A stretch of DNA of 64,000 bases from a virus (lineage: Duplodnaviria; Heunggongvirae; Uroviricota; Caudoviricetes): IMG/VR virus record IMGVR_UViG_3300025316_000590, positions 128,134-192,133 of that record. One strand, given 5' to 3'. The number at the start of each line of letters is the position of its first letter. Position 1 is the stretch's first letter. The position numbers were made by a program, and so were the translations under genes. Positions 6,398 to 59,460 of this stretch are shown one piece after another. Under the pieces are notes generated by a model. It was given only the letters and a program-made list of their open reading frames with translations, had not been told where the DNA came from and made no database searches.

Positions 6398-6405
6398 GTG
6401 TCTGG
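6398..6405 (+). promoter_or_regulatory. GTGTCTGG motif instance upstream of polA
   Basis: 26 nt before ATG 6431. Confidence 0.35.
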
Positions 6406-6430
6406 TGGAGACTACAGGAGGAAAGTAACA

Positions 6431-9070
6431 ATGGGCGACGGTAAGTTTTTCACCAGAATAGACCTGAAGGCCCCGACAACGGGGAGGGTCAAGCCGCGGA
6501 CGACTGGCCGCGACGAGGCGTACTATAACGAGAGGGGCTGCGACGCATGCCCGCTGGTCGATACCTGCGGTGGAATCGAGGATTCCCAGGTGAAGCCATC
6601 GGGAACGTCGCGGCCCCTCATCTACGTTCTGGGCGAAGCCCCAGGCAAAGATGAGGCTGAAGCGGGTGAACCGTTTGTTGGCAAGGCGGGCCAAGAGCTA
6701 CGCCGCCATCTGCCCGATATCAGTATCTGTAGATTCAACAACCCGGTGCGAGCACGGCCCGAGAACAACCGTGTGCCGACGATGTCCGAGGTGGAGTCAT
6801 GCCGACAGCACCTCGTGGCTGATATCGAACGCACCAAGCCTGCGGCAATCCTTGCCTGCGGAGCAACTGCCCTGAGTTGGTTCATCGGCGGTGAGCCACG
6901 AATCACAACGTGGCGTGGGCGTCGCCTGCCCGTGCAGGTAGGGAGTCATCGGTGCTGGATGTATCCGGTGATGCATCCGTCCTTTATCATACGGCAGGGC
7001 GGTGACAAGGGTGGACCCGACCGCGAGGCTCGCCAGCATGCCGTCATGTTCAAGCACGATATCAAGCGGTGTTTCGCCGAGACCAAGAAGGGTATCGACC
7101 TGGGTGACCTGCCCTGGAACATCGATGCTCTGGAGGATGGCGTGGAACTGGCGACGCCCAAGCTCGGCGTCAAGTGGGTGGTGAAGATGCTAGAGGACGC
7201 CGCGAAGGCGAAGATCTGCGGCCTCGACCTGGAAACCAACCGCGTGCGTCCCTACGCCAGCGGATCCCGAATTCTGAGCATGGCCATCAGCACGCCCAAG
7301 ACGGCGTTTGCATTCCCGATAGGCCACAGTGATGCGTGGTGGTCGGCAGAGGACGAGATCGTACTGACGAGTGCCATCCGAGGATTCCTGCTAACCAAGA
7401 TGATGAAGGTTGTCCACAACGCCAGCTTCGATATGGAGTGGCTGCTGCGGTTCTACGGCGTGCAAATCCTGAAGGATGATCTGTGGAATACGTGGGGTTG
7501 CACGCAGAACCAAGCGTACACCCTCGACGAACGCAAAGAGGACAGGATGCAAAGCCTCGATAGCCTGTGCCTGGAACGCTTGGGCACGCGGCTGAAGAAG
7601 TACAGCGACGTCGATGCCAAGCGTGGTGAGGTGGCCGAGATCGGGAAGCTCCTGCGGTACAACGCCCTTGATGCTAAGTGCCATAGGCTTCTGTACGAAG
7701 AGCAGAACCGGGCACTGAAAGCGACGGGTATGCTGAACACGTATCTCGATCATGTTCGTCGCGTACCGTTCCTCGTCTTGATGCAGCACAAGGGCGTTCC
7801 CGTCAGCCAGCCGGTGGTCGAGGAACTGCTGACAGACACTAACACCAAGATCAGGTTGGTAACGCAATCCGCCCTTGATACGCCCGAGGCTCATCAGTAT
7901 CGCAATACATGGGGCACGCCGTTCATCATCAACGGTAAGGGCAGCCGCGAATGCCTGGAGAAGGTGTTCGGGCACATCGAAGCCCTGTACCGCAAGGACG
8001 CCAACGGCGAGGAAGTTTTCACGACCGATAGCAGCGTATTCAGCACTATTGATTCGCCACTGGCCCACAGTATCAGCGAGTTCCGCGAGTGGACGAAGAT
8101 ACGCGATACTTATCTTCTGCCCATGCGTGCCGGTGCGGGTAGCTTGGTTTACGAGGACGGCAATCTGCATGCCAACTTCAATGGGACGTTCACCGATACC
8201 GGGCGGCTGTCGTCTGACGGCCCGAATATGCAGAACTTTCCCAAGCGTGAACACGCCGAGGTGCGGAAGATGGTATCGGCCCCTGAAGGCTGGCTCATTG
8301 TATCCGCCGATATGAAGCAACTGGAAGTCTGCGTGGCGGCCCAAATGTCGGGCGACAAGCGGTTGCTGAAGGCTGTCCGCGAACGGGCCGACATTCACAT
8401 GAAGTACGCGATCATGCTCAGCGAGGGCGTGCCGTTGTATTTGGAACTGGTCGGTCACGGTGATATCAAGAAGGCACGCTCGGCGATCAAGAGCCTGATC
8501 ACCTTCCCGTTTCTGTACGGTGCCATCCATACGACTGCCTCCCGCAACGTTCTGGCCAGCATGTCACAGTTCGACCGCGACAGGGCCGAAAGCGTCCGCA
8601 AGAAGGTGGAGAGAACCTGCGAGGACATCGAAAAGGAATTCTGGATTGAGTATCGTGATGTCAAGGCATGGCAGAACAAGCTGATGTCGGACTACGAGAA
8701 GAACGGCTATGTCACCTGCATGAACGGGCGTCGCCGCCGCGGGCCGCTGTCGATCAACCAGATCGCTAATACGCCTATTCAGGGCAGTGCCAGCGACCTT
8801 GTGGTGGACGCCGGCAATCGGCTGGCTCAGAAGGGCCTGCGGGACAATAACATGGCCCTGGTGATGAATATGAATATTCACGACGACCTGACGACCTTCG
8901 CCAAGAAGGAGGCCGCCGACGACGTGATGGCCGAAATGGTTGAAACCATGTTGCACCCCGGTTACGAGAACTGGGACATCAAGGCATGCCCGCTGGGCGT
9001 GGAGGTTTCTATCGGTTCCAACTGGTCGAATCAGAAGGCTATCGGGACGTGGTATAGCGACGAAGCCTGA
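6431..9070 (+). CDS. polA: DNA polymerase I (family A) with N-terminal UDG family-4-like domain and 3'-5' exonuclease domain
   Basis: UDG-4 motifs GEAPGKDEAEAGEPFVGKAGQEL and HPSFI plus Cys cluster; Exo I CGLDLETN; Pol motif A DMKQLEV, motif B K..FPFLYG, motif C NIHDDL; RBS AGGAGG 9 nt before ATG 6431 (alternative GTG 6398 would add N-terminal DYRRKVT). Confidence 0.9.
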   Translation: MGDGKFFTRIDLKAPTTGRVKPRTTGRDEAYYNERGCDACPLVDTCGGIEDSQVKPSGTSRPLIYVLGEAPGKDEAEAGEPFVGKAGQELRRHLPDISICRFNNPVRARPENNRVPTMSEVESCRQHLVADIERTKPAAILACGATALSWFIGGEPRITTWRGRRLPVQVGSHRCWMYPVMHPSFIIRQGGDKGGPDREARQHAVMFKHDIKRCFAETKKGIDLGDLPWNIDALEDGVELATPKLGVKWVVKMLEDAAKAKICGLDLETNRVRPYASGSRILSMAISTPKTAFAFPIGHSDAWWSAEDEIVLTSAIRGFLLTKMMKVVHNASFDMEWLLRFYGVQILKDDLWNTWGCTQNQAYTLDERKEDRMQSLDSLCLERLGTRLKKYSDVDAKRGEVAEIGKLLRYNALDAKCHRLLYEEQNRALKATGMLNTYLDHVRRVPFLVLMQHKGVPVSQPVVEELLTDTNTKIRLVTQSALDTPEAHQYRNTWGTPFIINGKGSRECLEKVFGHIEALYRKDANGEEVFTTDSSVFSTIDSPLAHSISEFREWTKIRDTYLLPMRAGAGSLVYEDGNLHANFNGTFTDTGRLSSDGPNMQNFPKREHAEVRKMVSAPEGWLIVSADMKQLEVCVAAQMSGDKRLLKAVRERADIHMKYAIMLSEGVPLYLELVGHGDIKKARSAIKSLITFPFLYGAIHTTASRNVLASMSQFDRDRAESVRKKVERTCEDIEKEFWIEYRDVKAWQNKLMSDYEKNGYVTCMNGRRRRGPLSINQIANTPIQGSASDLVVDAGNRLAQKGLRDNNMALVMNMNIHDDLTTFAKKEAADDVMAEMVETMLHPGYENWDIKACPLGVEVSIGSNWSNQKAIGTWYSDEA

Positions 9071-9088
9071 ACATGATATTCCGTAGCC

Positions 9089-9096
9089 GTGTCTAG
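9089..9096 (+). promoter_or_regulatory. GTGTCTAG motif instance
   Basis: about 22 nt before ATG 9118. Confidence 0.35.
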
Positions 9097-11809: not shown

Positions 11810-12647
11810 GACCGTCGTGCCTTGGTTCGGATCCGCGAGAACGGTTGCCGAACGCATCGGTGAGCATCTGACCGGCTTCAAGTGGGTGGGTATACCGTTC
11901 TGCGGCGGATTGTCGGAGGTGCTGTACATCCAGGCCCGATCCATCGTCTGCAATGATATGCACCGGCACATGATCAACCTCGCCCAGGTGCTGAAGGACG
12001 CGACGCTGGGACCGGCCATGATCGAAAGTCTGCGGGACGAACTGTTCCATCCGGAGACGCTGGCACACGCTCAGGCTACCTCGGCTGACACGGACAATGA
12101 TCAGTTGATTCCTATGGGTGCCCGCGCGCTGAACTACGAGGCTGCGAGGCAGTACTTCATCGCCTGTTGGATGGGCCGCAGTGGGAATGCTGGCGGCGAC
12201 AGGGAGTTCACGGGCAACCTGTCGGTGCGGTGGAACGCGAACGGTGGTGATTCTAATACGCGGTATCGCTCCGCCGTCGAGAGCCTGGCTGCGTGGCGGA
12301 AGGTCATCCAGCGATGTAACTTCACGTGTATGGACTGCTTCGAGTTTCTAGAGACCTGCGAGGATGATCCCGAGCACGCCATCTACTGCGACCCGCCGTG
12401 GCCCGAAGATGGTGATGTGTATAGGCACAAGTTCACGCGAGAACATCATACGCGGCTGGCCCAAATCCTGACGCGGTTCCAGAACGCACGCGTGGTGGTA
12501 CGAATCAACACGTGTTCATTAGTGGATGAGTTGTACCCTCGTGGGTTGTGGAATTGGAATCAGCAAACGAGTCGCACGCAGGGCAACAATGATAAGGTAG
12601 AGGTGATTTTGGTTTATCGACCCCGAAGAAAAATTCAACGTGTCTAG
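11748..12647 (+). CDS. DNA N6-adenine methyltransferase (Dam/D12-class-like; DPPW motif)
   Basis: VVPWFGSA (cf. PYFGGK) and catalytic IYCDPPW; true start may be GTG ~11814 to avoid 62-nt overlap. Confidence 0.6.
   Translation: MPHRISLLTNGRPSVSLPKIKTVVPWFGSARTVAERIGEHLTGFKWVGIPFCGGLSEVLYIQARSIVCNDMHRHMINLAQVLKDATLGPAMIESLRDELFHPETLAHAQATSADTDNDQLIPMGARALNYEAARQYFIACWMGRSGNAGGDREFTGNLSVRWNANGGDSNTRYRSAVESLAAWRKVIQRCNFTCMDCFEFLETCEDDPEHAIYCDPPWPEDGDVYRHKFTREHHTRLAQILTRFQNARVVVRINTCSLVDELYPRGLWNWNQQTSRTQGNNDKVEVILVYRPRRKIQRV
12640..12647 (+). promoter_or_regulatory. GTGTCTAG motif instance overlapping MTase stop
   Basis: 22 nt before ATG 12669. Confidence 0.35.
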
Positions 12648-13178: not shown

Positions 13179-13283
13179 TCGCGGAAGCCAACGGCAGATG
13201 TGTTTAGTGTAGGAGTAGCAAGCGGGACGATAAGGCGACCCGTAACGCTGGAACCAAGAACCTGTAACCAATGAGGTGAACCC

Positions 13284-14606: not shown

Positions 14607-15170
14607 ACCGAATGATTGCGACTACCTGCACTAGAAGGAAAACCCGGCGACGGGTAGACTGGTGGGTAGCCGCAAGGCTTCGCCTCTCAGTCCCAGTGGG
14701 GGAGAGGCGGGTGGTGAGGGCTGGCCGGAATCAGGACGGATTGGGATGGACGCGCTTGAGCACACCTGATGGGCGTTCCACTCGACCGCAGCATGGCCTG
14801 TCAACGCAAGGCGGCAGGGTTGCCTGCGAGACCAGCCTTCACCACCCGATTGCGAAGCGACGGGTTTGTTCTTGGATCAGACGACGATGTGCTCGTAGAC
14901 GCGCTGGGTTTGCACTCCTACCTAGCATACTACGGTGATAGCGGAGGTGGTTAGATACGAACGATGCAGTAGGTAGCTCGTAGCGACCGATGGTATCGAA
15001 AACGGTTAAGCCAGCAATGCGTCAACGACATGCAGGCGCGAACGATATGATCGTTCTACGGCAGAATGAACAAGTGCAGGCATGCAGATGACGACGGTCT
15101 CTGAGGGGCCTGCACGTGCCCCGCCCGGCGGCGATTCCGAAATAGCCGGGCTCGCTTTATATGGAGATCA
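14607..15170. other. about 560-bp region without convincing coding potential; hairpin-rich (e.g. CCTCTCagtcccagtgggGGAGAGG); candidate ncRNA or replication origin
   Basis: only short low-complexity ORFs; unusual for this otherwise tightly packed genome. Confidence 0.3.
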
Positions 15171-15450
15171 TGAGCTATGGTTCCAGCGAGTCCGGTCACC
15201 TCGCCTGTCGATAATGACGATGCCGAGATCGATCTACTTCTTCGACAGGCGAGTGCTGACCGGATGGATCCAGGCGAACGCCTCCGTGGCCTACCGCATC
15301 CGTGCTTCTTCATGCCGTACTGGTTCAAGTACGATTCCATCAGGCAACGCTGTCCTCGCTGTGGTATGTCAGGCGTCGAGATGCGGATGCGGTATCAGAC
15401 TACGGAAACGGGAAAGCAACCGTGATCGTGTCTAGTCAGCCGAGGTAACT

Positions 15451-17388: not shown

Positions 17389-17400
17389 GAGGTGACGGCC

Positions 17401-18580: not shown

Positions 18581-18584
18581 ACGT

Positions 18585-19058
18585 CTATTCAAGCTGTCGT
18601 GTATAGCCCTTGATGATGTTACGAATCGTTGTGGGGTTGACGTTAAATCGTATTCCGAGTCGGTAGTACCCAAATTCACCAGTCGCGTAAAGGAGACGAG
18701 CTTCAATAACCTGGGGTGTAGTCATCTTAGCGTTATAGTGGGTGGCTCCGTGCATGTGCCGTCTTTTGGAAACACAGTCGTCTTCGTTATCTTGCTGTGT
18801 TCCGAGGAACAGGTGTGTAGGCTCGACGCACGGTGGGTTATCACAGTGGTGACAGACATACATACCATCCGGTATTGGGCCGTAAGCGAGTTCATAAGCG
18901 ACGCGGTGGGCGTACAGTGGCTTCGAGTTCGTGCCACCGGATCCTATCATTCCATAGCCACTTCTGGTTCCGCCCATCCAGATCAAACATCCTCCGATTC
19001 TTCGGCGTTTGGGCACAGTGTGGAATCTAACATCAAGTGGTATGGCGTGGCGGGACAT
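18585..19058 (-). CDS. HNH endonuclease (HNH_3/AP2-type)
   Basis: minus strand; YAHRVAYELAYGPIPDGMYVCHHCDNPPCVEPTHLFLGTQQDN motif. Confidence 0.7.
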   Translation of the reverse strand: MSRHAIPLDVRFHTVPKRRRIGGCLIWMGGTRSGYGMIGSGGTNSKPLYAHRVAYELAYGPIPDGMYVCHHCDNPPCVEPTHLFLGTQQDNEDDCVSKRRHMHGATHYNAKMTTPQVIEARLLYATGEFGYYRLGIRFNVNPTTIRNIIKGYTRQLE

Positions 19059-19129
19059 AGTTATCTCCTTTGCTTTATTGTAGCAAAGCTATTGCTAATA
19101 CGCAAGAGTTGTTACGGAAAGACGATATC

Positions 19130-19828: not shown

Positions 19829-20278
19829 ATGTTTAGTCTGTTTGTTCCGAAGAATGATCTTATCCTTGATAGTTTTCAGAGCATGGCAGTTTGGGCACAT
19901 GAGTTGGTAGAGTTCGGGGTTTTTATAGGCCCTGACCGTGTTATCACCAGTTCTATGACGTCCGCCGCCGATAGCAACAATATGATCTGCTTGTAATATT
20001 TCAGGATGTTTGTTGTACCCACATTTGCAGCAACATCCGCCGAGCATTTGTAGTACAGCAACCCGTACCTGACGTCGCCACTCGTTTTTCCTTTTTGTGC
20101 AGCACGTTTTACATCTATACGAACGGTTGCGTAGTCCCGAAAATTCGGTGGTCGGTTGAGGAACGCCGCAGAGGTTACACGTGATATCCATAGCAGACAC
20201 TATACCACGTATCTGCAACGCGTACAACGCCACCGTGTCTGGACTGGTTGTGTATGACGTACCGTTCCCCGACTTCAA
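19799..20278 (-). CDS. HNH endonuclease
   Basis: minus strand; CKCGYNKHPEILQADHIVAIGGG...MCPNCHALKT. Confidence 0.65.
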   Translation of the reverse strand: MKSGNGTSYTTSPDTVALYALQIRGIVSAMDITCNLCGVPQPTTEFSGLRNRSYRCKTCCTKRKNEWRRQVRVAVLQMLGGCCCKCGYNKHPEILQADHIVAIGGGRHRTGDNTVRAYKNPELYQLMCPNCHALKTIKDKIILRNKQTKHSTPKATPAA

Positions 20279-24277: not shown

Positions 24278-24322
24278 CGCGGACAGCCAAGTGTCTGGAT
24301 AGCATAAGAAATAACCTGTAAG

Positions 24323-27751: not shown

Positions 27752-28099
27752 GTGGAGGTCATCATGAAGTGGTTTGCTGGTTTGATTTGTGCCATGATGC
27801 TGCTTTGCGGAACGGCGAATGCGGCGTGGCAAGAGGTGTGGGACGAGACGACATACAACGTCACCGTCTATCCGGCCCCGGTGTGGGTGGAATCAACGTA
27901 TGAGATCACCGTGGTTCCTGCTCCCGAGTGGCGGAAGTGCGGCGAGTGCGGTGTCTGGCATCAGGTACAGCCGCCGTCCCGTATCGAGCAGCGAAACTGC
28001 AAGAAGCAAGTTCAGCCGCCGTCTTACATCGAGCAACGTCACGGATATACCCGCCGCGTGGTGTGGGTGGACGACCCGATCATCTACCGCACGTGGTAG
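27752..28099 (+). CDS. secreted hypothetical protein (signal peptide; VQPPS repeats)
   Basis: RBS GGAGGTCATCATG; MKWFAGLICAMMLLCGTANA signal. Confidence 0.4.
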   Translation: MEVIMKWFAGLICAMMLLCGTANAAWQEVWDETTYNVTVYPAPVWVESTYEITVVPAPEWRKCGECGVWHQVQPPSRIEQRNCKKQVQPPSYIEQRHGYTRRVVWVDDPIIYRTW

Positions 28100-30852: not shown

Positions 30853-32067
30853 ATGGAACGCCGAAATATCGAAACCGTACCTACACGACGCCGCATCATC
30901 TCGTCCGTGGAGGTTCCCGTCGCGGAAGAACCGACATCCGACCAGCGTACCCTCGTCCGTCGCTCGATTGCGACCCCTGCTCGCAGGCATATTGGTGATA
31001 GCGGGAACGTGGACGAGAAGCTACTTGTTGCCCCCTATCCGTACTTCGGCGGAAAAAGCGGTGTCGCTAATGAGATATGGAGTCGCCTGGATCCCAAGAC
31101 CCTCGACTGCTATATCGAGCCGTGCATGGGATCCGCAGCAACGTACCTCGTGCGACCACAGCCGTGGGTGGGCCGTGAAGTCCTCAACGACTACGATGCC
31201 CTCCTGGTGAACGCGTGGAGGGCCATCAGCCGTCATCCCGACGAGGTGGCTGAGATCTGCAACGGTATCATGCTGGCCGAGATGGAACTGCACGCCATCC
31301 ACTCGCACCTCACGCGATCCAGGGATCGCATGCGGAAGCTCGTGGGCGGCAGTACCGACTTCTGTGACGTGAAGCTCGGCGCGTGGTGGCTGTGGGGCAT
31401 CTGCATGAAGCTGGGCGGTGGGTTCTGTAGCGGCGACGGCCCGTGGTACGTCATCAACGACGAGCTTGTGTGCCTGGAGAAGGACGACCCGCGACGGGAC
31501 GGCAACGGCATCACCTGTAGCGTGCCCTGCGTGGGGAACCGGGGCGTGCTGCGGCAGGAGCTTGACTACCTCAAGTCGTGGATGCGAGCCCTGTCGTACC
31601 GCATGCGACAGACATTAGTCCTCAGCGGTGACTGGTCGCGGGCCGTGACGCCCGCGTTCACGGGAACGGGCAAAATAGGCATCATGTTCGACCCGCCCTA
31701 CGGTGCTGATGCCAACTTCAACGGCACCCTATACACAAATCAGGATGCCGACATCAGCACCAAGATCAAGGAGTGGTGCATCCAGCATACCGACCCCGCG
31801 TGGTGCCGAGCGAACAAAGACACGAATATCTACCGCATCGCGTACTGCGGCTATACACCGGAAGGTGATATCCTTGAGCAGAACGGATGGGCAGTTCACG
31901 CGTGGACAGCCGCAGGAGGCTACGGAAACCAGGGTCAGGATGGGGCTAACAAGAAGGTAGAGAAGGGCGGGCAGTTTCTTCGCGGGAACGCGGGCCGCGA
32001 GCGTGTTTGGTTCAGCCCGGCCTGTGGTAGTGGCAGTGATATTTGGCTTAGATTCGGAAAGAAGTAA
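30853..32067 (+). CDS. dam: DNA N6-adenine methyltransferase (Dam-like, D12 class) with N-terminal extension
   Basis: APYPYFGGKS motif I and catalytic FDPPYG; N-terminus MERRNIETVPTRRRIISS carries basic motif. Confidence 0.7.
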   Translation: MERRNIETVPTRRRIISSVEVPVAEEPTSDQRTLVRRSIATPARRHIGDSGNVDEKLLVAPYPYFGGKSGVANEIWSRLDPKTLDCYIEPCMGSAATYLVRPQPWVGREVLNDYDALLVNAWRAISRHPDEVAEICNGIMLAEMELHAIHSHLTRSRDRMRKLVGGSTDFCDVKLGAWWLWGICMKLGGGFCSGDGPWYVINDELVCLEKDDPRRDGNGITCSVPCVGNRGVLRQELDYLKSWMRALSYRMRQTLVLSGDWSRAVTPAFTGTGKIGIMFDPPYGADANFNGTLYTNQDADISTKIKEWCIQHTDPAWCRANKDTNIYRIAYCGYTPEGDILEQNGWAVHAWTAAGGYGNQGQDGANKKVEKGGQFLRGNAGRERVWFSPACGSGSDIWLRFGKK

Positions 32068-32068: not shown

Positions 32069-32548
32069 ATGACCAAAAAACCAACAAGATCTGAAGTACT
32101 GCAAAAGTTCGGCACGGCGATCTCCGTGCTGGGCAAAGACGCTGTAGTGATTCATCTCAGCAAGATCACCTATCGCGAGCGTGAGATACTCAAGCTGCGG
32201 TTCGGTTTTGGCGATGGCTACTGCTACACATTTCAGGAGGTGGCCCACATCTTCAAGACCACCGTCGCCCGCATCCGCCAGATCGAGGAGAAGGCCATCC
32301 GTAAGATGTGCGCCCTGATGAACGAGGTCAAAGTACCGGAAATCCAAAGCATGAACATCGACGAGGCCAAGCGAGCCAAAATAGCGTTAGCTGAATCGGT
32401 GGGCACGCTGGTGCGAGAGTTCGAGCTACGGACCGGCCTGACCGTGCTGAGCATATCGCTGGGCCGCAAGGAATATTCAAGCTCCGAGATGCCGGCGGGA
32501 GTGACCAAGTCGCTGCTGACCGGAGTTCACGTATCCGTGAGGATATGA
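32069..32548 (+). CDS. sigma-70 region-4-like HTH protein (possible transcription co-factor)
   Basis: YREREILKLRFGFGDGYCYTFQEVAHIFKTTVARIRQIEEKAIRKM matches sigma region 4.2 HTH; no region 2. Confidence 0.45.
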   Translation: MTKKPTRSEVLQKFGTAISVLGKDAVVIHLSKITYREREILKLRFGFGDGYCYTFQEVAHIFKTTVARIRQIEEKAIRKMCALMNEVKVPEIQSMNIDEAKRAKIALAESVGTLVREFELRTGLTVLSISLGRKEYSSSEMPAGVTKSLLTGVHVSVRI

Positions 32549-33408
32549 TGGCAATCCGCCGCCCGGATCGATCATTGTTCGATGTCGCTACCACACGGGC
32601 CAGCCGTCAAGTCTATCTCGGCATCGACGGTACGAACTGGCTGCACACTATCTACCATGCCAACAACGGGCACGATGTGCTGGAGACTGTGGTGCGCCGC
32701 ATCGACGCCCTGACGCGGAACCTACAGCCGAAGCTGGTGGTGGTGTGCCTCGACCGCAGGAGCTTCCGGCATGATCTCTATCCGCCCTATAAGGCCAAAC
32801 GGGGCGAACGCCCGCACGACGAGAACCTGCACTTCGTACTGGAGAATGCTCTGGGCGTGCTGAAGGACTGGGCCGTGGTGGTTCAGGTAAACGGTTTTGA
32901 AGCGGATGATTGCCTAGCTGCCTTAGCCGCCAGGGCGGTCGCCGTGGGCAGTGATGCCGTGCTCGCGTCGCCCGACAAAGACCTCAACCAGTGCTTGGTT
33001 GCCGACCGCGTAACGATCATCAAGAAGTTCCACCTGTTGGGATCGGGTATCACAAACATTGAGTGGATGACGCCGCAGCTTCTTCTCGATCAGAAGGGCC
33101 TGACGCCGCGTCAGTGGATTGATTATCAGACCCTCGCTGGTGATTCTGGAGACGGTGTGCCTGGTTGTCCGGGATGGGGCGAGAAGACGGCCAGCGAGGC
33201 TATTCGGCAGTGGGGCAGCATCGACGCTATTTACGATAACATCGATTCAGTTAAGGTCAGCGCGTCCCGCAGGGCCGCCCTGCTGAAGTTCCGCGATGAT
33301 GGACTGGCAATCATGCGGCAACTGGTTACGCTCCGCACCGATGTGGACGAAGTAAAGCGAATCTTCGTGTCTAGACGTCGTATAGGAGCAAGTCATGCCC
33401 GAACGTAG
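32545..33408 (+). CDS. 5'-3' exonuclease / flap endonuclease (PolI N-terminal-like, RNase H-like)
   Basis: YLGIDGTNWLH, GFEADDCLAALA, H3TH-like LAGDSGDGVPGCPGWGEKTA. Confidence 0.75.
   Translation: MMAIRRPDRSLFDVATTRASRQVYLGIDGTNWLHTIYHANNGHDVLETVVRRIDALTRNLQPKLVVVCLDRRSFRHDLYPPYKAKRGERPHDENLHFVLENALGVLKDWAVVVQVNGFEADDCLAALAARAVAVGSDAVLASPDKDLNQCLVADRVTIIKKFHLLGSGITNIEWMTPQLLLDQKGLTPRQWIDYQTLAGDSGDGVPGCPGWGEKTASEAIRQWGSIDAIYDNIDSVKVSASRRAALLKFRDDGLAIMRQLVTLRTDVDEVKRIFVSRRRIGASHART
33367..33374 (+). promoter_or_regulatory. GTGTCTAG motif instance
   Basis: about 21 nt before ATG 33395. Confidence 0.35.
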
Positions 33409-34324
33409 ACGCATCCAGACACCGCCTGTAGTTCGACGACGTATGAACACAGGTGGTCCGCCACCCGTTCCGCCGTCCCTACGCCCCGAACCGATGCGTG
33501 CCGGTCAATTCGGTATGAGGATCGCGAGCCCTGACCCGGGCAACATCAACGTCGACTTGATGAACCGATTCATCAACATCAACGGTGAGCCGGCGACGGT
33601 TAGGAACTGTACAGCTTATGTGTGTAACGGTCAGGTGGTGCTGAACATGGAGGTGGCCTACCCGCCAGGGCAGCGTGCCGGTATCGCCGGGCTGTGGGTT
33701 CCACCGGATAACGTACCGCTTCGCGGACAGGAGATCAGCGGCGTAGCCTTTGACGAGGCCGTAAACCTCGACAGGCGGCTTCAGTGGCATAGTACGGAAA
33801 CGGGCCGCGTATCTTCCGCAAGGCCCAACGTGAGCAACGTGCCGCGTTCAGGCGGGCGGGCAGCCCCGTTACCGCTGGGTGGCCCCGAGAACCTAGCGTT
33901 CCACATGGGAAACGGTCAATCGGGAGTCATCTGCGAGGCCCAACCGCGATGCCCCGCCATCGGTGAAGATTTGCGTGGCGTGGCCCGCGGGCGAGTCATG
34001 GACATGTCCCATGCCCCCAACCGGGAACGCCGCGAGATGATATACTACATCCGCGAGCGAGAACTGCTGATCGCCTTCTACCGCGAGGATCCCGACTACA
34101 TCGTGGTCGGCATCGACCCCGAATTGCCGCACGGGGCTGTCATACGCAGCGTTCACCACGAGCCGCATCGTGCGGCGTTTGCGTTCATTGTATATCATCC
34201 ATCGTTCGATATCGTACCCGATAGCCAATCCCCGCCCAACGCTGGCGTAATGCCGTTTCAGTACCGCACCCTGACGCGAGCCGGTGACGGGAGATATGAT
34301 ATCGGAAATGCACCGCTTGAGTAG
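33395..34324 (+). CDS. hypothetical protein, N-terminal MPERRRIQTPP motif; shares YPPG motif with 39481 and 42455 proteins
   Basis: ATG 28 nt after GTGTCTAG motif with AGGAG RBS; VAYPPGQRAG. Confidence 0.4.
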   Translation: MPERRRIQTPPVVRRRMNTGGPPPVPPSLRPEPMRAGQFGMRIASPDPGNINVDLMNRFININGEPATVRNCTAYVCNGQVVLNMEVAYPPGQRAGIAGLWVPPDNVPLRGQEISGVAFDEAVNLDRRLQWHSTETGRVSSARPNVSNVPRSGGRAAPLPLGGPENLAFHMGNGQSGVICEAQPRCPAIGEDLRGVARGRVMDMSHAPNRERREMIYYIRERELLIAFYREDPDYIVVGIDPELPHGAVIRSVHHEPHRAAFAFIVYHPSFDIVPDSQSPPNAGVMPFQYRTLTRAGDGRYDIGNAPLE

Positions 34325-34377
34325 TGTCTGGTGACGTGATGCAGGTTTACATCTCCACTAACTCGAAAGGTAGTATC

Positions 34378-34863: not shown

Positions 34864-35023
34864 TTCGTGTCTGGTGATGCATGGTGCGGGCGGCGTTACG
34901 ACGCAGGGATGGTTGGGATCGCTACGCACGGCATCCCTTAGAATGGCGTGGCCTTCGGGCCTAGTGACTCTCTGTGATTCGGAGGCGTCGCTCGCCCGTT
35001 CCGCCCTTATCAAGGAGACCGAT

Positions 35024-41241: not shown

Positions 41242-41274
41242 TATGATAAGCTATACTGAGTTGTTAACTCGACG

Positions 41275-41361
41275 GTAGCCGCGAACTCCCGTACACGCCA
41301 AACGCCCCACCAGCGATCTAACTTCGCGGCTACTTCTGCTGGTGGGGCGGGCGGCGTTTGG
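41275..41361 (+). promoter_or_regulatory. two interleaved inverted repeats (A-B-A'-B' pseudoknot-like topology) upstream of HNH gene
   Basis: A gtagccgcgaa / A' ttcgcggctac; B ccaaacgccccaccagc / B' gctggtggggcgggcggcgtttgg. Confidence 0.4.
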
Positions 41362-41370
41362 AGAACAGTC

Positions 41371-41808
41371 GTGGTTGAACGACAGAAAATAGCAACGAAG
41401 CGATGTGCTAAATGTGGGTACACTAAACCGATTACGGGCAACTTCTGTATGTCACGCGGTCGGCCCGTATCCACGTGTCTATCATGCCGAAGAGAGGCTG
41501 CGAGGATTTATGTAAGAACGAGCTATGCACGGGAATCATGTCGTATACGTTATCGGAAGCGTAGCGAGAACATGAAGTTACGTCTACTTGCTGTGCTCGG
41601 TGTTGATAGATGCTCGTGTGGGGAAACGCATATTGCGTGTTTAGATTTTCATCATGTTACTGGCGAGAAAGTTGATAGCGTTAGGCACATGATAAATACT
41701 AGTGTTCCCATTGATCTAATCATAGCCGAGGTTCGGAAGTGCATAGTGCTTTGTTCAAACTGTCATCGCAAAGTACATTACCGTGATAGAAGTGCAGTGT
41801 CTGGTTAA
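41371..41808 (+). CDS. HNH endonuclease
   Basis: CAKCGY...C.SC...HIACLDFHHV...CSNCHRKVH; AT-richer than surroundings. Confidence 0.65.
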   Translation: MVERQKIATKRCAKCGYTKPITGNFCMSRGRPVSTCLSCRREAARIYVRTSYARESCRIRYRKRSENMKLRLLAVLGVDRCSCGETHIACLDFHHVTGEKVDSVRHMINTSVPIDLIIAEVRKCIVLCSNCHRKVHYRDRSAVSG

Positions 41809-41852
41809 ACGGTGGGTGCGGCGACGATACTGCAGCATCACGATTACCGAAC

Positions 41853-44095: not shown

Positions 44096-44125
44096 ATTAC
44101 AAACCCTAGAGTCAAGGATGATATC

Positions 44126-44263
44126 ATGCGGATCGTAGCTATTCTGGTTCTGTTAGTATGTGCGGGTTGTGCAGGATCGAAGGTGGTGACGCGGTACGCG
44201 ATCACCGACACTCATCAGGACGGCCACCCCGATATCGTAGCGACCACCGTCGCAGTTGAGGTG
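44126..44263 (+). CDS. small lipoprotein (45 aa; lipobox LVCAGC)
   Basis: MRIVAILVLLVCAGCAGSK; not in ORF track because <60 aa. Confidence 0.4.
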
Positions 44264-44352
44264 GCTCGCTAAATCATCCAGGCGTCATACGAACCCGACG
44301 TGTCTGGATGCTCAATGACGTTTTACCCTATTTCTAGACCCGGAGGTGATTT

Positions 44353-45856: not shown

Positions 45857-45864
45857 GTGTCTGG
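45857..45864 (+). promoter_or_regulatory. GTGTCTGG motif instance after hairpin
   Basis: about 23 nt before ATG 45887. Confidence 0.35.
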
Positions 45865-46653: not shown

Positions 46654-46890
46654 ATGAGCACGCTATCGATCATACTAGCGAGCATCTGTTGCACGGCGGT
46701 CGTTCTGTCCGTGGGATACGATGCTTTGGCGTTTTACTTTGGGTGGTCAACGATTAGTTGGGCACTCTATCAATGGGATAAATCTTGGGCACAATTGCCT
46801 CGGTGGATCGCTGCTGCCATTTGGATGCACGTGTGCTACGGCGAAGCATCATATACCGCGGTTAGCCGCTATTTCGGACACATGCCATGA
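46654..46890 (+). CDS. small membrane protein
   Basis: RBS GGAGGTTAACAAACATG; TM helices. Confidence 0.35.
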   Translation: MSTLSIILASICCTAVVLSVGYDALAFYFGWSTISWALYQWDKSWAQLPRWIAAAIWMHVCYGEASYTAVSRYFGHMP

Positions 46891-47018
46891 ACAGCCCAGC
46901 AGAAGTCGCAGCCGAGCTTGTAGCCATCCTCAACGATGAGGTGAAGGGTATGGACGACCTTGGTCGGCGTATTGTGGCCAATAGGCTCGCCGAGGTCATC
47001 CAGCCCTTCCTGATGTAA
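46887..47018 (+). pseudogene. 43-aa remnant duplicating the N-terminus of the 47813..48178 protein (GC-rich native copy)
   Basis: MNSPAEVAAELVAILNDEVKGMDDLGRRIVANRLAEVIQPFLM vs MSPGEVASELAALVISEVSDMNDLGRRIVANRLGELISPWL. Confidence 0.5.
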
Positions 47019-47177
47019 ACTCTTCGCAGGACTGGCACGACGGCTACGTTCAGGGCCAGCTTGACTACGCCGAGGCGTTCCTGCGGGCGACCGCGGCGAT
47101 GCGGGAGAAGGCGGCGAAAGCGAAGGTGAAGCCGTGAGTTGCTATCGGCTGTGGTTTAATGTACCATGAGTCTAGTC

Positions 47178-47234
47178 GAGCATCGCCAATGCCCAAATCA
47201 TGTCCGCCACGCCCTGTCTGCGTTTGGCGATGCT
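47178..47234 (+). promoter_or_regulatory. 12-bp perfect inverted repeat (GAGCATCGCCAA / TTGGCGATGCTC) upstream of endonuclease-like gene
   Basis: stem flanks about 30-nt loop; third GCATCGCC copy overlaps RBS. Confidence 0.35.
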
Positions 47235-47270
47235 CCAGGGCCTCTGGCGGACTGCATAAGGAGCATCGCC

Positions 47271-47816
47271 ATGCTAGAACGACGACGAATTCAAACAAGT
47301 CCTGAAGAAATTAGGAAGGCTAGAAAGAGGTACACAAATCGCCAGTGTTACCTACGGAATCGTGAATCTATAAATATGCGTAGTGCAAAAAGATGGGCAG
47401 AACTTTGGAAGAATGATCCAGACAAGGCAAGGGCGATAATTGGCAAGAGTCAACGCAAGCATCGAGATCGTCGTCACGTAGATGTTTCCATAGCGTTAGA
47501 GTGTATGATGCGAAACGCACGTGCTCGTAGTGCCAGACGTAACCTGGATTGCAACATATCGCTAGAATACCTGCGTCAGGTTTATGATTTACAGGGCGGT
47601 GTTTGTGCTATAACGGCTATGCCGTTTGAGCAAACTACTGACTACGGAAAGATGTCGTTAGATCGTATTGATCCATCGTGTGGTTACGTTCAGGGTAACA
47701 TTAGAATTGTTTGGTTACTAGTGAATAACGCTATGGGTGTCTGGGGTGAGGGGCCTTTACTTCGAGTTGCAGAGGCGATTGTGGAACGGAATTTAGTAAG
47801 GAATCAACCTAAATGA
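47271..47816 (+). mobile_element. putative phage homing-type endonuclease gene (SLDRIDPS.GY..GN.RIV motif), AT-richer insert; N-terminus MLERRRIQT
   Basis: low-GC codon usage relative to flanks; sits between a truncated and a full copy of the same gene 5' end. Confidence 0.45.
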
Positions 47817-48178
47817 GTCCAGGTGAAGTTGCATCCGAGTTGGCAGCCTTGGTCATTAGCGAAGTTAGTGATATGAATGATCTCGGTCGTCGTATTGTTG
47901 CTAATCGTTTAGGCGAACTGATAAGTCCCTGGCTACCAGCACCTGTTCGTCCGGAACAGGGAACTGCGGCGACCGTACCCATGAACGATGTCGAGGCCAA
48001 AGCCTATGGCCAGACGGCGACCATGAGGTTTGGGAAGTACGAGGGTAAGCGTATCGATGCTGTTCCACTGGACTACCTAATATGGCTGACCGATGAGTCC
48101 CGCCGCCTGTGGCGTGAGATGCACAGGTACTTGAACAGTCCCCGCATCAAACTGGAGCGTGATCAGAAGGGGCTATGA
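47813..48178 (+). CDS. hypothetical protein (full-length copy whose 5' end is duplicated at 46887..47018)
   Basis: ATGA overlap with endonuclease gene; 5' portion AT-richer (donor-like). Confidence 0.45.
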   Translation: MSPGEVASELAALVISEVSDMNDLGRRIVANRLGELISPWLPAPVRPEQGTAATVPMNDVEAKAYGQTATMRFGKYEGKRIDAVPLDYLIWLTDESRRLWREMHRYLNSPRIKLERDQKGL

Positions 48179-53273: not shown

Positions 53274-53290
53274 GCCGTGTCTGGTTAGGC

Positions 53291-54920: not shown

Positions 54921-54965
54921 TATCATATTGGCGGGCCGTGTCCAGTGTGATAGGAGGTATGAATC

Positions 54966-55523: not shown

Positions 55524-55531
55524 GTGTCTGG
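55524..55531 (+). promoter_or_regulatory. GTGTCTGG motif instance followed by ATAGGAG RBS
   Basis: intergenic between 54966..55316 gene and next ORFs. Confidence 0.35.
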
Positions 55532-57830: not shown

Positions 57831-58104
57831 CTGTTGTCAGAAGTGTGGTGACCAGATCGGCTGGCTGGGCCGGTTCTTCCAGGCACTGGGCCTGCCCCTG
57901 CACAAGTGCCAGCCGCACCGCGGCCCGCTACACGATATGGTGGTGAAGCTGCGGGCCGAACTGAACGCCGACCGGGCGGCGGCCAACGACGCGATTGCTC
58001 AGTACAAGGCGGGCAACATCACCTGGGAGCAGTGTCAGGATATCTGCGTCAAGCACAACTATCGCTACGATCCAACTCTAGAAAGATTACGGTGTAGTTT
58101 ATGA
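57817..58104 (+). CDS. hypothetical protein (CCQKCGDQ)
   Basis: 95 aa ORF. Confidence 0.3.
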   Translation: MYPSSCCQKCGDQIGWLGRFFQALGLPLHKCQPHRGPLHDMVVKLRAELNADRAAANDAIAQYKAGNITWEQCQDICVKHNYRYDPTLERLRCSL

Positions 58105-58952
58105 CGGGTATGCTCGTGATCACGAAGGCGGGCAAGGTGATGATGAAGGTCATCGCCGACAGCCTGGGCCACAACGTCAATGCCCTGGTTATGTACATCA
58201 GGCCGCTTCTGGTCGGTGGACGCGTGCCGTCAGTCTACGATGTCGAGCTACGATGTGCCTGGTCCAACTTTGGCGGGCCGCGAAACTTGGTGATCATAAC
58301 CGAGACTGAGATCTGTTTCTCCGATGGTCGTGATGCTCTCGTGAATGAGAACTACCCAAACCCACGTTATCGCAATACGTTTGCTGACCCACGATTTAAC
58401 CCGCGGTGTGATCGTGGCACTGTAGAAAACCTCATCGTTATCGAGATCAATGACGTTCGGCAGCGTCCGGAGCGACTCCGAATCACGAGAACAGTCGAAC
58501 GACGCAAAATGACGTCATGCTTCACCAGACGGCGGTCGGATTCATATAGCCAGATACTGTCGTGCGTGCTGCTGGAGGAACTGCGGCCACTGGGCGAAGC
58601 ACACGCCATGATGCTGATGTCCGACCGTATGGAGCCGTCTGGCGTGCGGATCAAGGTGCGTGATACTGGAGTCATCGTGGAGAACATTCGTGCGGGCCGC
58701 GAGTCGCCCAGCACGGTCCGACGCAGCTTATCCCTGGGCACGGTCATGCTGGTTGGCCGCAACGGAAACAACAACACTAACGTGTGGGACATCGTAATGA
58801 TCGGCCTGCGACCGCCCGAGGATTGCATCGAGCTACGCCTGGCTGAATACTATGGCTGGACAGTAGACCAAGTTCGCAGCATGACTGGCCACCAACGCCG
58901 ACAGTTTCTGGACTTCATCGACAATCCCGTGGGTGAAGGTGGTGAACTATGA
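58101..58952 (+). CDS. hypothetical protein, internal ERRKMTS and C-terminal GEGGEL
   Basis: 283 aa ORF, ATGA overlap. Confidence 0.35.
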   Translation: MTGMLVITKAGKVMMKVIADSLGHNVNALVMYIRPLLVGGRVPSVYDVELRCAWSNFGGPRNLVIITETEICFSDGRDALVNENYPNPRYRNTFADPRFNPRCDRGTVENLIVIEINDVRQRPERLRITRTVERRKMTSCFTRRRSDSYSQILSCVLLEELRPLGEAHAMMLMSDRMEPSGVRIKVRDTGVIVENIRAGRESPSTVRRSLSLGTVMLVGRNGNNNTNVWDIVMIGLRPPEDCIELRLAEYYGWTVDQVRSMTGHQRRQFLDFIDNPVGEGGEL

Positions 58953-58995
58953 TCGTGATTGCGTCATCGTATGATGAAGCCGTCGCCACTGAAAG

Positions 58996-59460
58996 ATGAC
59001 CATGCCTGAACGACGCAGGATGAGAACCGCCCCGAAGATGGCCGGGCCTGATCAGATATGCCGACATTTTCGCGGCATGTTAGAGGATCGTCCGTGTGCT
59101 ATGGACATCGATATCAGGCGACTGATAGGCGGGGTTGACATCGGCTGGGCACTGCGTGCACCGTGCCGGAAACTGAGCGACGCATCGGACTCAAACCGCG
59201 TGCCGTGTGATCATTTCGCTATGTTCACGCGGGCCGAGGGCCGAGCCAGGAACATCGAACTAATCCGTATTCTCGAACGTCATGCTATGGCCGCCGATAC
59301 CGTGGATGCCTTCAGGAGCCGCCACAAACGCCAGAACGCTCAGGAGACCGTAGATTGCCCGACTGGCTGCGGCGGGCGGCTGACGCTATCGATAGCGGCT
59401 ATCAACGGGCATTGCTGGGGACGATGTAGCACGCCGGGGTGTCTGGCATGGATGGAGTAA
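58996..59460 (+). CDS. hypothetical protein, N-terminal MTMPERRRMRT motif; Cys-rich
   Basis: 154 aa ORF. Confidence 0.35.
   Translation: MTMPERRRMRTAPKMAGPDQICRHFRGMLEDRPCAMDIDIRRLIGGVDIGWALRAPCRKLSDASDSNRVPCDHFAMFTRAEGRARNIELIRILERHAMAADTVDAFRSRHKRQNAQETVDCPTGCGGRLTLSIAAINGHCWGRCSTPGCLAWME

What the first reader, a model, noticed from the sequence alone, without database searches (positions are those of the whole stretch)
6398..59446. Strand-specific 8-mer GTGTCTRG repeated about 20 times just upstream of start codons: candidate phage-specific (late/middle) promoter
GTGTCTGG/GTGTCTAG occurs only on the + strand at approximately: 6398, 9089, 12640, 13200 (GTGTTTAG), 15428, 20235, 22240 (GTGTCTGT), 23437 (GTGTCTGA), 24291, 33367, 34324, 34867, 41797, 44300, 45857, 53277, 54938 (GTGTCCAG), 55524, 59439.
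Almost all lie 15-60 nt before an ATG/GTG with a Shine-Dalgarno sequence, often followed by TAGG/ATAGGAG. About 2 copies of a given 8-mer are expected by chance in 64 kb on both strands.
The window encodes a region-2-only sigma (1994..2518, T4 gp55-like architecture) and a region-4-only protein (32069..32548). In T4, gp55 recognises a single short -10-like element (TATAAATA) with short leaders, which matches this geometry.
Basis: seen in the sequence. Interest (0 to 1): 0.75.

Follow-up and report, generated by a model that had tools for sequence, protein, structure and literature searches.

The report
Phage-specific promoter motif GTGTCTRG
A short DNA word, cGTGTCTRGw, sits just upstream of many genes in an uncultivated ~192-kb phage and its relatives, and is most likely the single "-10-like" promoter element read by host RNA polymerase carrying a phage-encoded sigma protein: a familiar kind of phage gene switch in a new sequence and protein guise.

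Summary
GTGTCTRG occurs 20 times (3.7 expected), 19 on the coding strand. GTGTCTGG is the most over-represented 8-mer in the window. Eleven of the 19 start 9-60 nt upstream of a start codon, and 12 are non-coding.

Relatives with 45-77% protein identity keep the motif at orthologous gene fronts while the flanks diverge. A distant relative whose sigma is only 30% identical has none.

A 37-site logo gives c-GTGTCTRG-w, with a G about 12 nt from the motif start and no -35 element. Start codons lie as close as 14 nt, so only a -10-type position fits. The core CGTGTC matches the -10 region of ECF sigma promoters such as M. tuberculosis sigmaL.

The motif fronts replication and recombination genes, so "middle" fits better than "late". 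The protein at 32069-32548 is a genuine stand-alone sigma70 region 4.

No transcription start site has been mapped. This is a new member of a known kind.

The parts
6398..6405 (+). GTGTCTGG, 33 nt upstream of the PolA (UDG-exo-PolA) ATG at 6431. A hairpin abuts it upstream.
   Evidence: The block CCGTGTCTGGTGG is invariant in clade B (L002 14549) while the intergenic flanks diverge.
9089..9096 (+). GTGTCTAG. In-frame ATGs lie at +14 (9103) and +29 (9118, with GGAG).
12640..12647 (+). GTGTCTAG. Its TAG is the stop codon of the Dam-like methyltransferase gene. It lies 29 nt upstream of the ATG at 12669.
13200..13207 (+). Variant GTGTTTAG, 84 nt upstream of the gp32-like SSB gene (13284).
15428..15435 (+). 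GTGTCTAG, 23 nt upstream of a small ORF at 15451 that leads into the RecA-like gene at 15594.
20235..20242 (+). GTGTCTGG, 98 nt upstream of the ATG at 20333.
24291..24298 (+). GTGTCTGG, 41 nt upstream of the ATG at 24332, at the head of a tightly packed gene run (24332-27717).
33367..33374 (+). GTGTCTAG, 28 nt upstream of the ATG at 33395, inside the 3' end of the exonuclease gene.
   Evidence: The orthologous site in clade B is GTGTCCAG (L011 2800).
34324..34331 (+). GTGTCTGG, 54 nt upstream of the ATG at 34378.
   Evidence: Conserved in clade B (L011 3634).
34867..34874 (+). GTGTCTGG, 157 nt upstream of the TSCPD gene (35024).
   Evidence: In clade B a variant GTGTTTAG lies 25 nt upstream of the ortholog (L011 5440).
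41797..41804 (+). GTGTCTGG within a 647-nt gap, 92 nt upstream of the GTG at 41889. A variant GTGTTTAG lies at 41637.
44300..44307 (+). GTGTCTGG, 53 nt upstream of the SPFH/Band-7 gene (44353).
45857..45864 (+). GTGTCTGG, 30 nt upstream of the ATG at 45887. A strong hairpin lies 16 nt upstream.
   Evidence: The clade B ortholog has GTGTCTGA at the same place.
53277..53284 (+). GTGTCTGG with the ATG only 6 nt after its end (53291). This is a possible leaderless start.
   Evidence: Conserved in clade B, where the ATG is at +24 and has a GGAGG (L011 14631).
54938..54945 (+). Variant GTGTCCAG, 28 nt upstream of the ATG at 54966.
55524..55531 (+). GTGTCTGG, 33 nt upstream of a GTG that has an AGGAG (a 26-codon ORF), and about 153 nt upstream of 55677.
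59439..59446 (+). GTGTCTGG, 26 nt upstream of the ATG at 59465. It is the last copy before a 14.5-kb stretch without any.
   Evidence: Conserved position in clade B (L011 20110).
2314..2321 (+). Intragenic GTGTCTGG in the sigma gene (codons V-C-L-D), 207 nt upstream of the csrA-like gene. It is a possible internal promoter, but its status is uncertain.
   Evidence: Kept as GTGTCTAG in clades B and C. The surrounding coding DNA is also conserved at 86%, so this is inconclusive.
27951..27958 (+). Intragenic GTGTCTGG, 164 nt upstream of the SbcC-like gene. Two more intragenic copies lie at 41187-41194 and 47737-47744.
   Evidence: No comparative data are available.
32003..32010 (+). Weak variant GTGTTTGG, 66 nt upstream of the stand-alone sigma region-4 gene.
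   Evidence: PWM score 12.8.
1994..2518 (+). Candidate recognition factor: a 174-aa protein with an ECF-like sigma domain 2 (residues ~5-90) plus a C-terminal domain of unknown type. No sigma domain 4 is detectable.
1921..1948 (+). Host-type promoter TTGACG-N16-TAAGAT in front of the sigma gene. The same hexamers occur at 60470-60497.
   Evidence: The hexamers are invariant and the spacer variable across clades A, B and C. There are 2 matches in the window against 0.03 expected, and the second is also conserved in clade B.
32069..32548 (+). Stand-alone group-1-type sigma region 4.2 protein (159 aa). It is a possible beta-flap-binding partner or decoy, but its role is not established.
   Evidence: Pfam Sigma70_r4 E 3e-11. 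RpoD/SigA region 4 chains in the PDB hit at E 6e-10.

Best explanation
cGTGTCTRGw is the single -10-type recognition element of a phage-specific promoter class, probably middle (replication-phase).

The proposed mechanism has three steps:
1. Host sigma70-RNA polymerase transcribes the phage sigma gene (1994-2518) early, from a conserved TTGACG-N16-TAAGAT promoter.
2. The product is an ECF-like sigma domain 2 with no sigma domain 4. It binds host core polymerase and reads the non-template CGTGTC(T) as ECF sigmas read their -10 element, with no -35 contact.
3. Transcription starts about 12-13 nt from the first G of the motif, often at a G. This gives leaders of roughly 0-45 nt ahead of gene blocks for PolA, SSB, RecA, exonuclease and many unknown genes.

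Shown here: the motif's excess, its strand and junction bias, its conservation at orthologous sites, the absence of a -35, the geometry, the sigma2 fold, and the conserved host-type promoter before the sigma gene.

Inferred: that the motif initiates transcription, where it does so, and that this particular protein reads it.

The confidence of 0.6 is for the whole statement. That it is a promoter of some kind I put at about 0.75.
For: Excess and placement:
- 20 copies against 3.7 expected, 19 of them co-directional with the genes. GTGTCTGG is the top 8-mer, 15 against 1.33.
- 11 of 19 start 9-60 nt before a start codon (p 2.5e-7) and 12 of 19 are non-coding (p 1.9e-7). Of 42 gaps of at least 20 nt, 21 hold the motif or a one-substitution variant.

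Conservation:
- Clade B relatives (45-77% protein identity) carry about 3 copies per 10 kb on the gene strand and none opposite.
- Orthologous sites are kept before PolA and before the genes at 33395, 34378, 45887, 53291 and 59465, and at two further sites upstream of the window. Flanks diverge and variants are tolerated (GTGTCCAG, GTGTCTGA, GTGTTTAG).

Co-variation with the sigma:
- A syntenic relative whose sigma is only 30% identical (RecA 57%) has 0 copies in 31.6 kb. Unrelated loci have 0.04-0.08 copies per 10 kb per strand.

Architecture:
- The 37-site logo shows C at -1, GTGTCTRG, A/T at +8 (36 of 37), G at +12 (24 of 37), and nothing upstream.
- Start codons 14-33 nt from the motif start rule out a -35 or -30 position.

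Resemblance to ECF -10 regions:
- The M. tuberculosis sigmaL consensus is C-14 G-13 T-12 G-11 N C/A A G, and the P-sigL scaffold begins CGTGTCAG (PMC6372665).
- The phage protein's best structural and profile matches are ECF sigma2 domains.

Context:
- Generic sigma70-like promoters and intrinsic terminators do not exceed shuffles across the three scanned 20-kb segments covering window 1-60000. About 120 co-directional genes therefore need another promoter class.
- The only two strong host-type promoters are conserved, and one sits before the sigma gene.
- There is no consistent RNA structure at the motif.
Against: - No 5' ends have been mapped and the host is unknown.
- The link between this sigma and the motif is correlative: co-occurrence in three clades and absence in one distant clade.
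- About 108 kb of the 192-kb genome was not inspected. It could encode another sigma or a phage RNA polymerase.
- ECF sigmas normally need a -35 element and domain 4. The C-terminal domain of this protein is unexplained.
- Four exact copies are intragenic, and four lie 92-157 nt from the next long ORF.
- At 53277 and 9089 the ATG is only 6 nt after the motif. That requires leaderless translation, or else those genes are translated from read-through transcripts.
- The intragenic copy in the sigma gene is conserved, but so is its coding context.
Confidence: 0.6

Rival explanations
1. It is a promoter, but it is read by something other than the 1994-2518 protein. Candidates are a phage-encoded RNA polymerase or second sigma in the ~108 kb not inspected, or a host ECF sigma that the phage exploits.
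For: Only 84 kb of the 192.4-kb genome was seen. The CGTGTC core is a generic ECF-type -10. The assignment to this sigma is correlative.
Against: No RNA polymerase gene turned up among the larger proteins scanned from the 84 kb inspected, though not every ORF was scanned. Host ECF sigmas need a -35 element, and none is present. The motif disappears in the clade whose phage sigma has diverged to 30% identity, although synteny is kept. Promoters of single-subunit phage polymerases are usually about 20 bp, whereas only 9-10 positions are informative here.
Confidence: 0.17
2. It acts in RNA as a linear intercistronic signal in long read-through transcripts. It could be a cleavage or processing site, or the operator of a translational regulator such as the phage CsrA homologue or an unknown endoribonuclease.
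For: All genes are co-directional, so the motif is transcribed in any read-through RNA. It always lies 5' of the Shine-Dalgarno sequence. A CsrA homologue is encoded next to the sigma gene, and this gene pair is conserved even in the distant clade.
Against: CsrA binds GGA. The GTGTCTAG variant has no GG, and only 13 of 37 sites continue with A. There is no conserved secondary structure or pairing bias: paired probability is 0.68 against 0.61 +/- 0.19 in controls. The inverted repeat at 33367/33415 is not conserved. Distance to the start codon varies from 14 to about 150 nt, which suits a promoter better than an operator overlapping the ribosome-binding site. The match to a DNA -10 consensus, together with a cognate sigma2 protein, would be a coincidence under this reading.
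Confidence: 0.12
3. It is a DNA-level signal unrelated to transcription: strand-specific nick sites (as in T5 or phiKMV-like phages), a Chi-like recombination signal, or a replication or packaging signal.
For: It is a strand-specific over-represented 8-mer. The phage encodes RecA, SbcC-like and exonuclease functions.
Against: Chi-like and nick motifs have no reason to sit 9-60 nt before start codons or to be conserved at orthologous gene fronts. A 14.5-kb stretch has none.
Confidence: 0.03
4. It is an artefact of codon usage or composition in a genome whose genes all lie on one strand.
For: The one-strand gene arrangement does create strand-biased words. CTCTGGAG, with 10 copies that are all in-frame coding, is an example.
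Against: Most copies are non-coding or at gene junctions. Copies are conserved in diverged intergenic DNA. None of the 100 shuffles reached 20 copies.
Confidence: 0.01

Closest known systems
T4 late promoters (TATAAATA) read by gp55, with gp33 and the sliding clamp gp45
   Same: Both use a single 8-bp -10-type element with no -35. The phage protein carries only sigma domain-2 function. A separate small protein could occupy the beta-flap site of sigma domain 4, giving a 'split sigma' (PMC2988020). Leaders are short. The phage also encodes a clamp and a clamp loader.
   Different: There is no sequence similarity to gp55: hhalign probability 0.15%. The motif is G/C-rich and ECF-like rather than TATA-like. 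Here it fronts replication genes rather than demonstrably late genes. The separate protein is a true sigma70 region 4, unlike gp33. Clamp dependence is untested.
ECF (group 4) sigma promoters, e.g. M. tuberculosis sigmaL: CG + TGNC/A-AG at -14 to -7
   Same: The core CGTGTC is identical to the P-sigL -10 region, including the upstream CG (PMC6372665). Domain 2 of the protein matches ECF sigma2 best by fold and by profile.
   Different: ECF sigmas have domain 4 and need a -35 (GGAAC/TGAAC type). Here no domain 4 is detectable and there is no -35 in 37 sites. Positions -8 and -6 differ (T and G here).
Other phage-encoded sigma factors with their own promoter consensus (phiEco32 gp36; SPO1 gp28 and gp33/gp34). 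This comparison is from my own knowledge and was not tested here.
   Same: A phage sigma redirects host core polymerase to a phage-specific consensus in a temporal cascade that starts from host-sigma promoters.
T4 middle promoters (MotA box at -30 plus a sigma70 -10, with sigma appropriation by AsiA/MotA)
   Same: Both are a phage-specific class in front of replication genes, following an early host-promoter phase.
   Different: The geometry excludes a -30 element, because start codons lie 14-33 nt from the motif start. No sigma70-type -10 follows the motif.

Membership tests
sigma70-family protein (domain 2) | Sigma region 2 fold and sequence (core binding, -10 recognition) | tested here: met
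ECF (group 4) sigma factor | Two-domain architecture: sigma2 plus sigma4 | tested here: not met
ECF-type promoter | A -10 region of CGT/GTC type plus a conserved -35 (GGAAC-like) 16-17 bp upstream | tested here: inconclusive
   The -10-like part is met: cGTGTC equals the P-sigL CGTGTC. The -35 part is not met: no informative position between -45 and -2 in 37 sites.
T4 gp55 family (late sigma) | Sequence homology to gp55 | tested here: not met
   hhalign of the family profile against T4 gp55 gives probability 0.15%. BLASTP gives E 2.6. The only PHROG hit is phrog_35491, of unknown function, at E 1.4e-3.
T4-late-type promoter architecture (functional class, not homology) | A single ~8-bp element at -10, no -35, with the start site a few bp downstream | tested here: inconclusive
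   The single element and the lack of a -35 are met in silico. The geometry is compatible. The start site has not been mapped.
Primary-sigma region 4.2 (protein 32069-32548) | Helix-turn-helix of region 4.2 that binds the beta flap and the -35 element | tested here: met
   Pfam Sigma70_r4 E 3.3e-11, 42.9 bits against a 24.1-bit cutoff. RpoD/SigA region-4 chains hit at E 6e-10 over residues 30-80. From my reading of that alignment and my own recollection of E. coli numbering, the residues aligned with -35-contacting R584 and E585 are V and A. DNA specificity is not testable here.
sigma70-type (host) promoter at 1921-1948 and 60470-60497 | -35 and -10 hexamers at 16-18 bp spacing, with hexamers conserved and spacer free | tested here: met
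   TTGACG-N16-TAAGAT. The hexamers are invariant and the spacer variable in clades A, B and C. There are 2 matches against 0.03 expected, and the second is conserved in clade B. Activity is untested.
Structured RNA element or known RNA family | Conserved secondary structure or an Rfam match | tested here: not met
   No Rfam match at gathering threshold across the window. Pairing probability of the motif is within controls.

The most novel reading that the evidence does not exclude
The phage builds a 'split sigma' from two unrelated sigma lineages. One part is an ECF-derived domain-2 protein (1994-2518) that alone reads cGTGTCTRG. The other is a separately encoded primary-sigma-type region 4 (32069-32548) that takes the beta-flap site, displacing or mimicking host sigma70 region 4 without reading a -35. 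This would be an independent, convergent counterpart of T4 gp55+gp33, possibly coupled to a conserved sigma-CsrA gene pair for post-transcriptional control.
Probability: 0.2. Interest if true: 0.7.

Novelty: new member of a known kind. Interest (0 to 1): 0.45.

Why it matters
If confirmed, the motif supplies the transcription map of a previously undescribed lineage of ~190-kb environmental phages. That map has host-type early promoters, then a phage sigma, then about 20-30 cGTGTCTRG promoters in the replication block.

It would also show that an ECF-type domain 2 can work without domain 4 or a -35 element. This has so far been documented mainly for the unrelated T4 gp55.

The compact 9-10-bp promoter and its small sigma could serve as an orthogonal expression module. 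The stand-alone sigma70 region 4 and the conserved sigma-CsrA gene pair are testable leads on host takeover.

Tried and rejected
- Close relatives in INPHARED phages: none by DNA. The sigma has no tblastn hit, and PolA is only 29% identical to Vibrio MAR10-like phages.
- IMG/VR scans with the sigma and with the 45887 protein found nothing. The sigma family alignment was too divergent to scan with.
- The JGI metagenome scan with RecA returned only ~45%-identical bacterial-type RecA loci. These were used as negative controls.
- A literature search for the motif returned only irrelevant hits on 'macrophage'.
- Search for a -35 or upstream element: a fixed-register logo showed nothing. ATGATAT/ATSAT looked enriched upstream of sites, but it is over-represented on both strands throughout the window, 29 against 5.6. 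I therefore rejected it as part of the promoter.
- The MotA-box or -35-type reading was rejected on geometry.
- RNA structure: no pairing bias and no excess upstream hairpin stability. The 33367/33415 inverted repeat is not conserved.
- CTCTGGAG, the second most over-represented 8-mer, is a coding-frame artefact.
- The rare codons TGT-CTA that keep the intragenic site in the sigma gene looked like evidence of selection. The neighbouring coding DNA is equally conserved, so this is inconclusive.
- In the distant clade D, only a weak candidate word (CGTTAGG) was seen. No convincing alternative motif was found.
- No tRNA or Rfam family was found anywhere in the window.

Full report
**1. The observation**

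GTGTCTRG occurs 20 times in the window. Dinucleotide shuffles give 3.72 +/- 1.8, with a maximum of 10. Nineteen copies are on the + strand.

GTGTCTGG alone occurs 15 times against 1.33 expected under a third-order Markov model. It is the most over-represented 8-mer of the window.

A simple gene model places about 120 genes, all but one weak call on the + strand, with 88% of the window coding. Strand bias alone therefore proves little. The second most over-represented 8-mer, CTCTGGAG, is entirely in-frame coding.

What sets GTGTCTRG apart is where it lies:
- 11 of 19 copies start 9-60 nt before a called start codon. That zone is 9.7% of the window (p 2.5e-7).
- 12 of 19 copies are non-coding, against 12% of the window (p 1.9e-7).
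- Of 42 intergenic gaps of at least 20 nt, 21 hold the motif or a one-substitution variant.

**2. Where the window comes from**

The window has no DNA match among 50,697 phage records. Its PolA is 29% identical to that of Vibrio MAR10-like phages.

The same sequence lies on a 192,532-nt metagenomic contig whose ends overlap by 141 nt. The genome is therefore a circular or permuted molecule of about 192.4 kb, and the window spans the contig junction.

The window encodes the following:
- a UDG-exonuclease-PolA fusion;
- a beta-clamp-like protein and a clamp loader;
- a gp32-like SSB;
- a RecA-like protein;
- an SbcC-like ATPase and a calcineurin-like phosphoesterase (Metallophos family);
- two Dam-like methyltransferases;
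- an OMP-decarboxylase/phosphoribosyltransferase fusion;
- a CsrA homologue.

No virion gene or RNA polymerase gene was recognised among the proteins scanned from the 84 kb I could inspect. Not every ORF was scanned.

**3. Comparative evidence**

The sigma-like protein has only two close clusters among 5.8 billion proteins, at 64% and 60% identity. Contigs carrying these clusters, and contigs carrying homologues of the 45887 protein at 75-77% identity, were fetched.

In these relatives (clades B and C) the motif again occurs only on the gene strand. The density is about 3 per 10 kb, against 0 on the opposite strand.

It is kept at orthologous positions:
- before PolA, where the block CCGTGTCTGGTGG is invariant in an otherwise poorly alignable spacer;
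- before the genes at 34378, 53291 and 59465;
- at two sites in the 8 kb upstream of the window.

At two further orthologous sites the relative carries a one-base variant: GTGTCTAG versus GTGTCCAG before 33395, and GTGTCTGG versus GTGTCTGA before 45887.

A more distant syntenic relative (clade D) has the same clamp-PolA-clamp loader-OMPdecase-RecA order and the same sigma-CsrA pair. Its sigma is 30% identical and its RecA 57% identical. It has no copy in 31.6 kb.

In 240 kb of unrelated metagenomic loci the density is 0.04-0.08 per 10 kb per strand.

The motif thus tracks the close sigma orthologues.

**4. Anatomy**

A logo of 37 non-redundant junction sites gives the following:
- C at -1 (24 of 37);
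- GTGT invariant by selection;
- C, T, R, G;
- A/T at +8 (36 of 37);
- G at +12 (24 of 37, against a 30% background).

No position between -45 and -2 is informative. There is no -35 element.

An apparent upstream ATGATAT/ATSAT enrichment is not specific. That word is over-represented on both strands throughout the window.

The distance from the motif start to the start codon is 14, 14, 23, 26, 28, 28, 29, 30, 33, 41, 53 and 54 nt at the clearest sites. A -35 or MotA-box-like position would put the start of transcription beyond the start codon. Only a -10-type position is compatible with these distances.

Two genes (9103 and 53291) have their ATG exactly 6 nt after the motif. In clade B the 53291 ortholog has its ATG at +24, with a GGAGG. 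In the window this gene would have to be leaderless, or else translated from read-through RNA.

Some sites follow strong hairpins (6398, 24291, 45857). On average, however, upstream stability and the pairing of the motif do not differ from controls, so there is no sign of a structured RNA element. Rfam and tRNA scans are empty.

**5. The candidate reader of the motif**

The protein at 1994-2518 (174 aa) scores below the Pfam cutoff for Sigma70_r2. An exhaustive search found 88 remote relatives of 150-250 aa.

No family member has a Pfam region-4 hit. The C-terminal ~70 residues have no assignable fold. There is no similarity to T4 gp55.

The motif core matches the ECF -10 region defined experimentally for M. 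tuberculosis sigmaL. That consensus is C-14 G-13 T-12 G-11 N-10 C/A-9 A-8 G-7, and the P-sigL scaffold begins CGTGTCAG. The CG preference upstream is shared by many ECF sigmas (PMC6372665).

If cGTGTCTR is aligned to positions -14 to -7, the start site falls at about 12-13 nt from the first G. That is where the logo shows its only downstream G preference.

**6. A second, host-type promoter class and the cascade**

The 279-nt gap before the sigma gene lacks the motif. It contains TTGACG-N16-TAAGAT. Across clades A, B and C the two hexamers are invariant while the spacer varies, which is the classic footprint of a sigma70-type promoter.

The same hexamers occur once more, at 60470-60497. That copy is also conserved in clade B (2 matches against 0.03 expected).

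Generic sigma70-like and terminator-like matches do not exceed shuffles across the three scanned 20-kb segments covering window 1-60000.

The last GTGTCTRG copy is at 59439. The next 14.5 kb, downstream of the second host-type promoter, has none.

This supports a cascade: host sigma70 promoters drive the phage sigma (and CsrA), and the phage sigma then drives GTGTCTRG promoters in front of replication, recombination and many unknown genes. 'Middle' therefore fits better than 'late'. I could not examine the structural genes.

**7. The region-4 protein**

The protein at 32069-32548 matches primary-sigma region 4.2 strongly. The scores are Pfam E 3e-11 and PDB RpoD/SigA region 4 E 6e-10, with the sequence LTxRExxVLxLRFG...RIRQIExKAxRK nearly intact.

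From my reading of the alignment, the residues aligned with E. coli R584 and E585 are V and A.

T4 gp33 is described as a sigma4 mimic that binds the beta flap without reading DNA, making gp55+gp33 a split sigma (PMC2988020). A comparable role here is plausible but untested. A decoy or competitor role is equally possible.

**8. Verdict**

The best explanation is a phage-specific promoter class with a single -10-type element. I put the probability that it is a promoter at about 0.75. I put the probability that it is a promoter read by the 1994-2518 protein at about 0.6.

The rivals are:
- another polymerase or sigma (0.17);
- a linear RNA signal (0.12);
- a non-transcriptional DNA signal (0.03);
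- a composition artefact (0.01).

The system works like T4 late transcription, but it is not a member of the gp55 family. It resembles ECF promoters and sigmas in the -10 element and in domain 2, but it fails the two-domain and -35 criteria.

It is a new member of a known kind: a phage sigma with its own promoter consensus. The possible split-sigma arrangement adds some interest.

Noticed in passing
window 1921-1948 and 60470-60497 (also L002 8435, L001 5789, L011 20595): Two identical host-type promoters, TTGACG-N16-TAAGAT. The hexamers are invariant and the spacer variable across three phage clades. One precedes the sigma gene. The other opens a region of at least 14 kb that has no GTGTCTRG.
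   Followed up: yes
window 2521-2718: A CsrA homologue (Pfam E 4e-14) lies immediately downstream of the sigma gene. The sigma-CsrA gene pair is conserved in all relatives, including the distant clade D (L019 10001-10730). Many Shine-Dalgarno regions after the motif read RUA(A)GGAG, which loosely resembles CsrA sites.
   Followed up: partly
window 32069-32548: A stand-alone primary-sigma-type region 4.2 protein of 159 aa. It could be a beta-flap binder, a sigma70 competitor, or the partner of the domain-2 protein.
   Followed up: partly
window 46887-48178: A gene that is continuous in clade B (L011 11305-11670, 121 aa) is split here into 46887-47018 and 47981-48178. The ~960-nt insertion carries an HNH/endonuclease VII-like ORF (47166-47816; phrog_3322 E 3e-21). 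This looks like an intron or a mobile endonuclease insertion, but Rfam finds no group I or II intron even at E up to 1.
   Followed up: partly
window 1-64000 versus contig ERZ27245846 k141_83342: The window spans the ends of a 192,532-nt contig whose termini overlap by 141 nt. The genome is therefore circular or circularly permuted, at about 192.4 kb.
   Followed up: yes
window, both strands (e.g. 9073, 34296, 44118-44127, 54920, 55507): ATGATAT/ATATCAT occurs 29 times against 5.6 expected, on both strands, often at gene junctions. A palindrome ATGATATCAT lies at 44118. The meaning is unknown. Some copies are ATGA stop/start overlaps.
   Followed up: partly
window 14607-15176, 18581-19183, 39481-39949, 41242-41888: Four gaps of 470-650 nt have no convincing ORF, tRNA or Rfam match. 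They could hold small genes or non-coding RNAs.
   Followed up: no
window 3407-4738, 6431-9070; L008 3584-6172: Unusual nucleotide-metabolism genes are present: an OMP decarboxylase-phosphoribosyltransferase fusion, a PolA with an N-terminal UDG-like domain, and upstream Amidoligase_2 and GATase_6 genes. Together they suggest a modified base in the phage DNA.
   Followed up: no
window 63346-63909 and the next gene (L017 10001-11243): S-adenosylmethionine decarboxylase and spermidine/spermine synthase homologues suggest phage-encoded polyamine synthesis.
   Followed up: no
L011 753-2561, L044 11085-12149; relatives' SNF2 helicase and PolA genes: Relatives carry TnpB/Cas12f1-like genes, HNH genes and inteins (in the SNF2 helicase and in PolA, 1779 aa) that are absent from the window phage. 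Mobile elements appear to turn over heavily in this lineage.
   Followed up: no
L044 4412, 5508, 9318, 17112, 19172: In the distant clade D, which lacks GTGTCTRG, the word CGTTAGG(T) recurs 44-77 nt upstream of several genes. It is a weak candidate for that clade's equivalent promoter element.
   Followed up: partly
window 33367-33422: The only - strand copy of the motif (33415-33422) forms an 8-bp inverted repeat with the 33367 site, spanning the Shine-Dalgarno sequence and ATG of gene 33395. The repeat is not conserved in clade B.
   Followed up: yes
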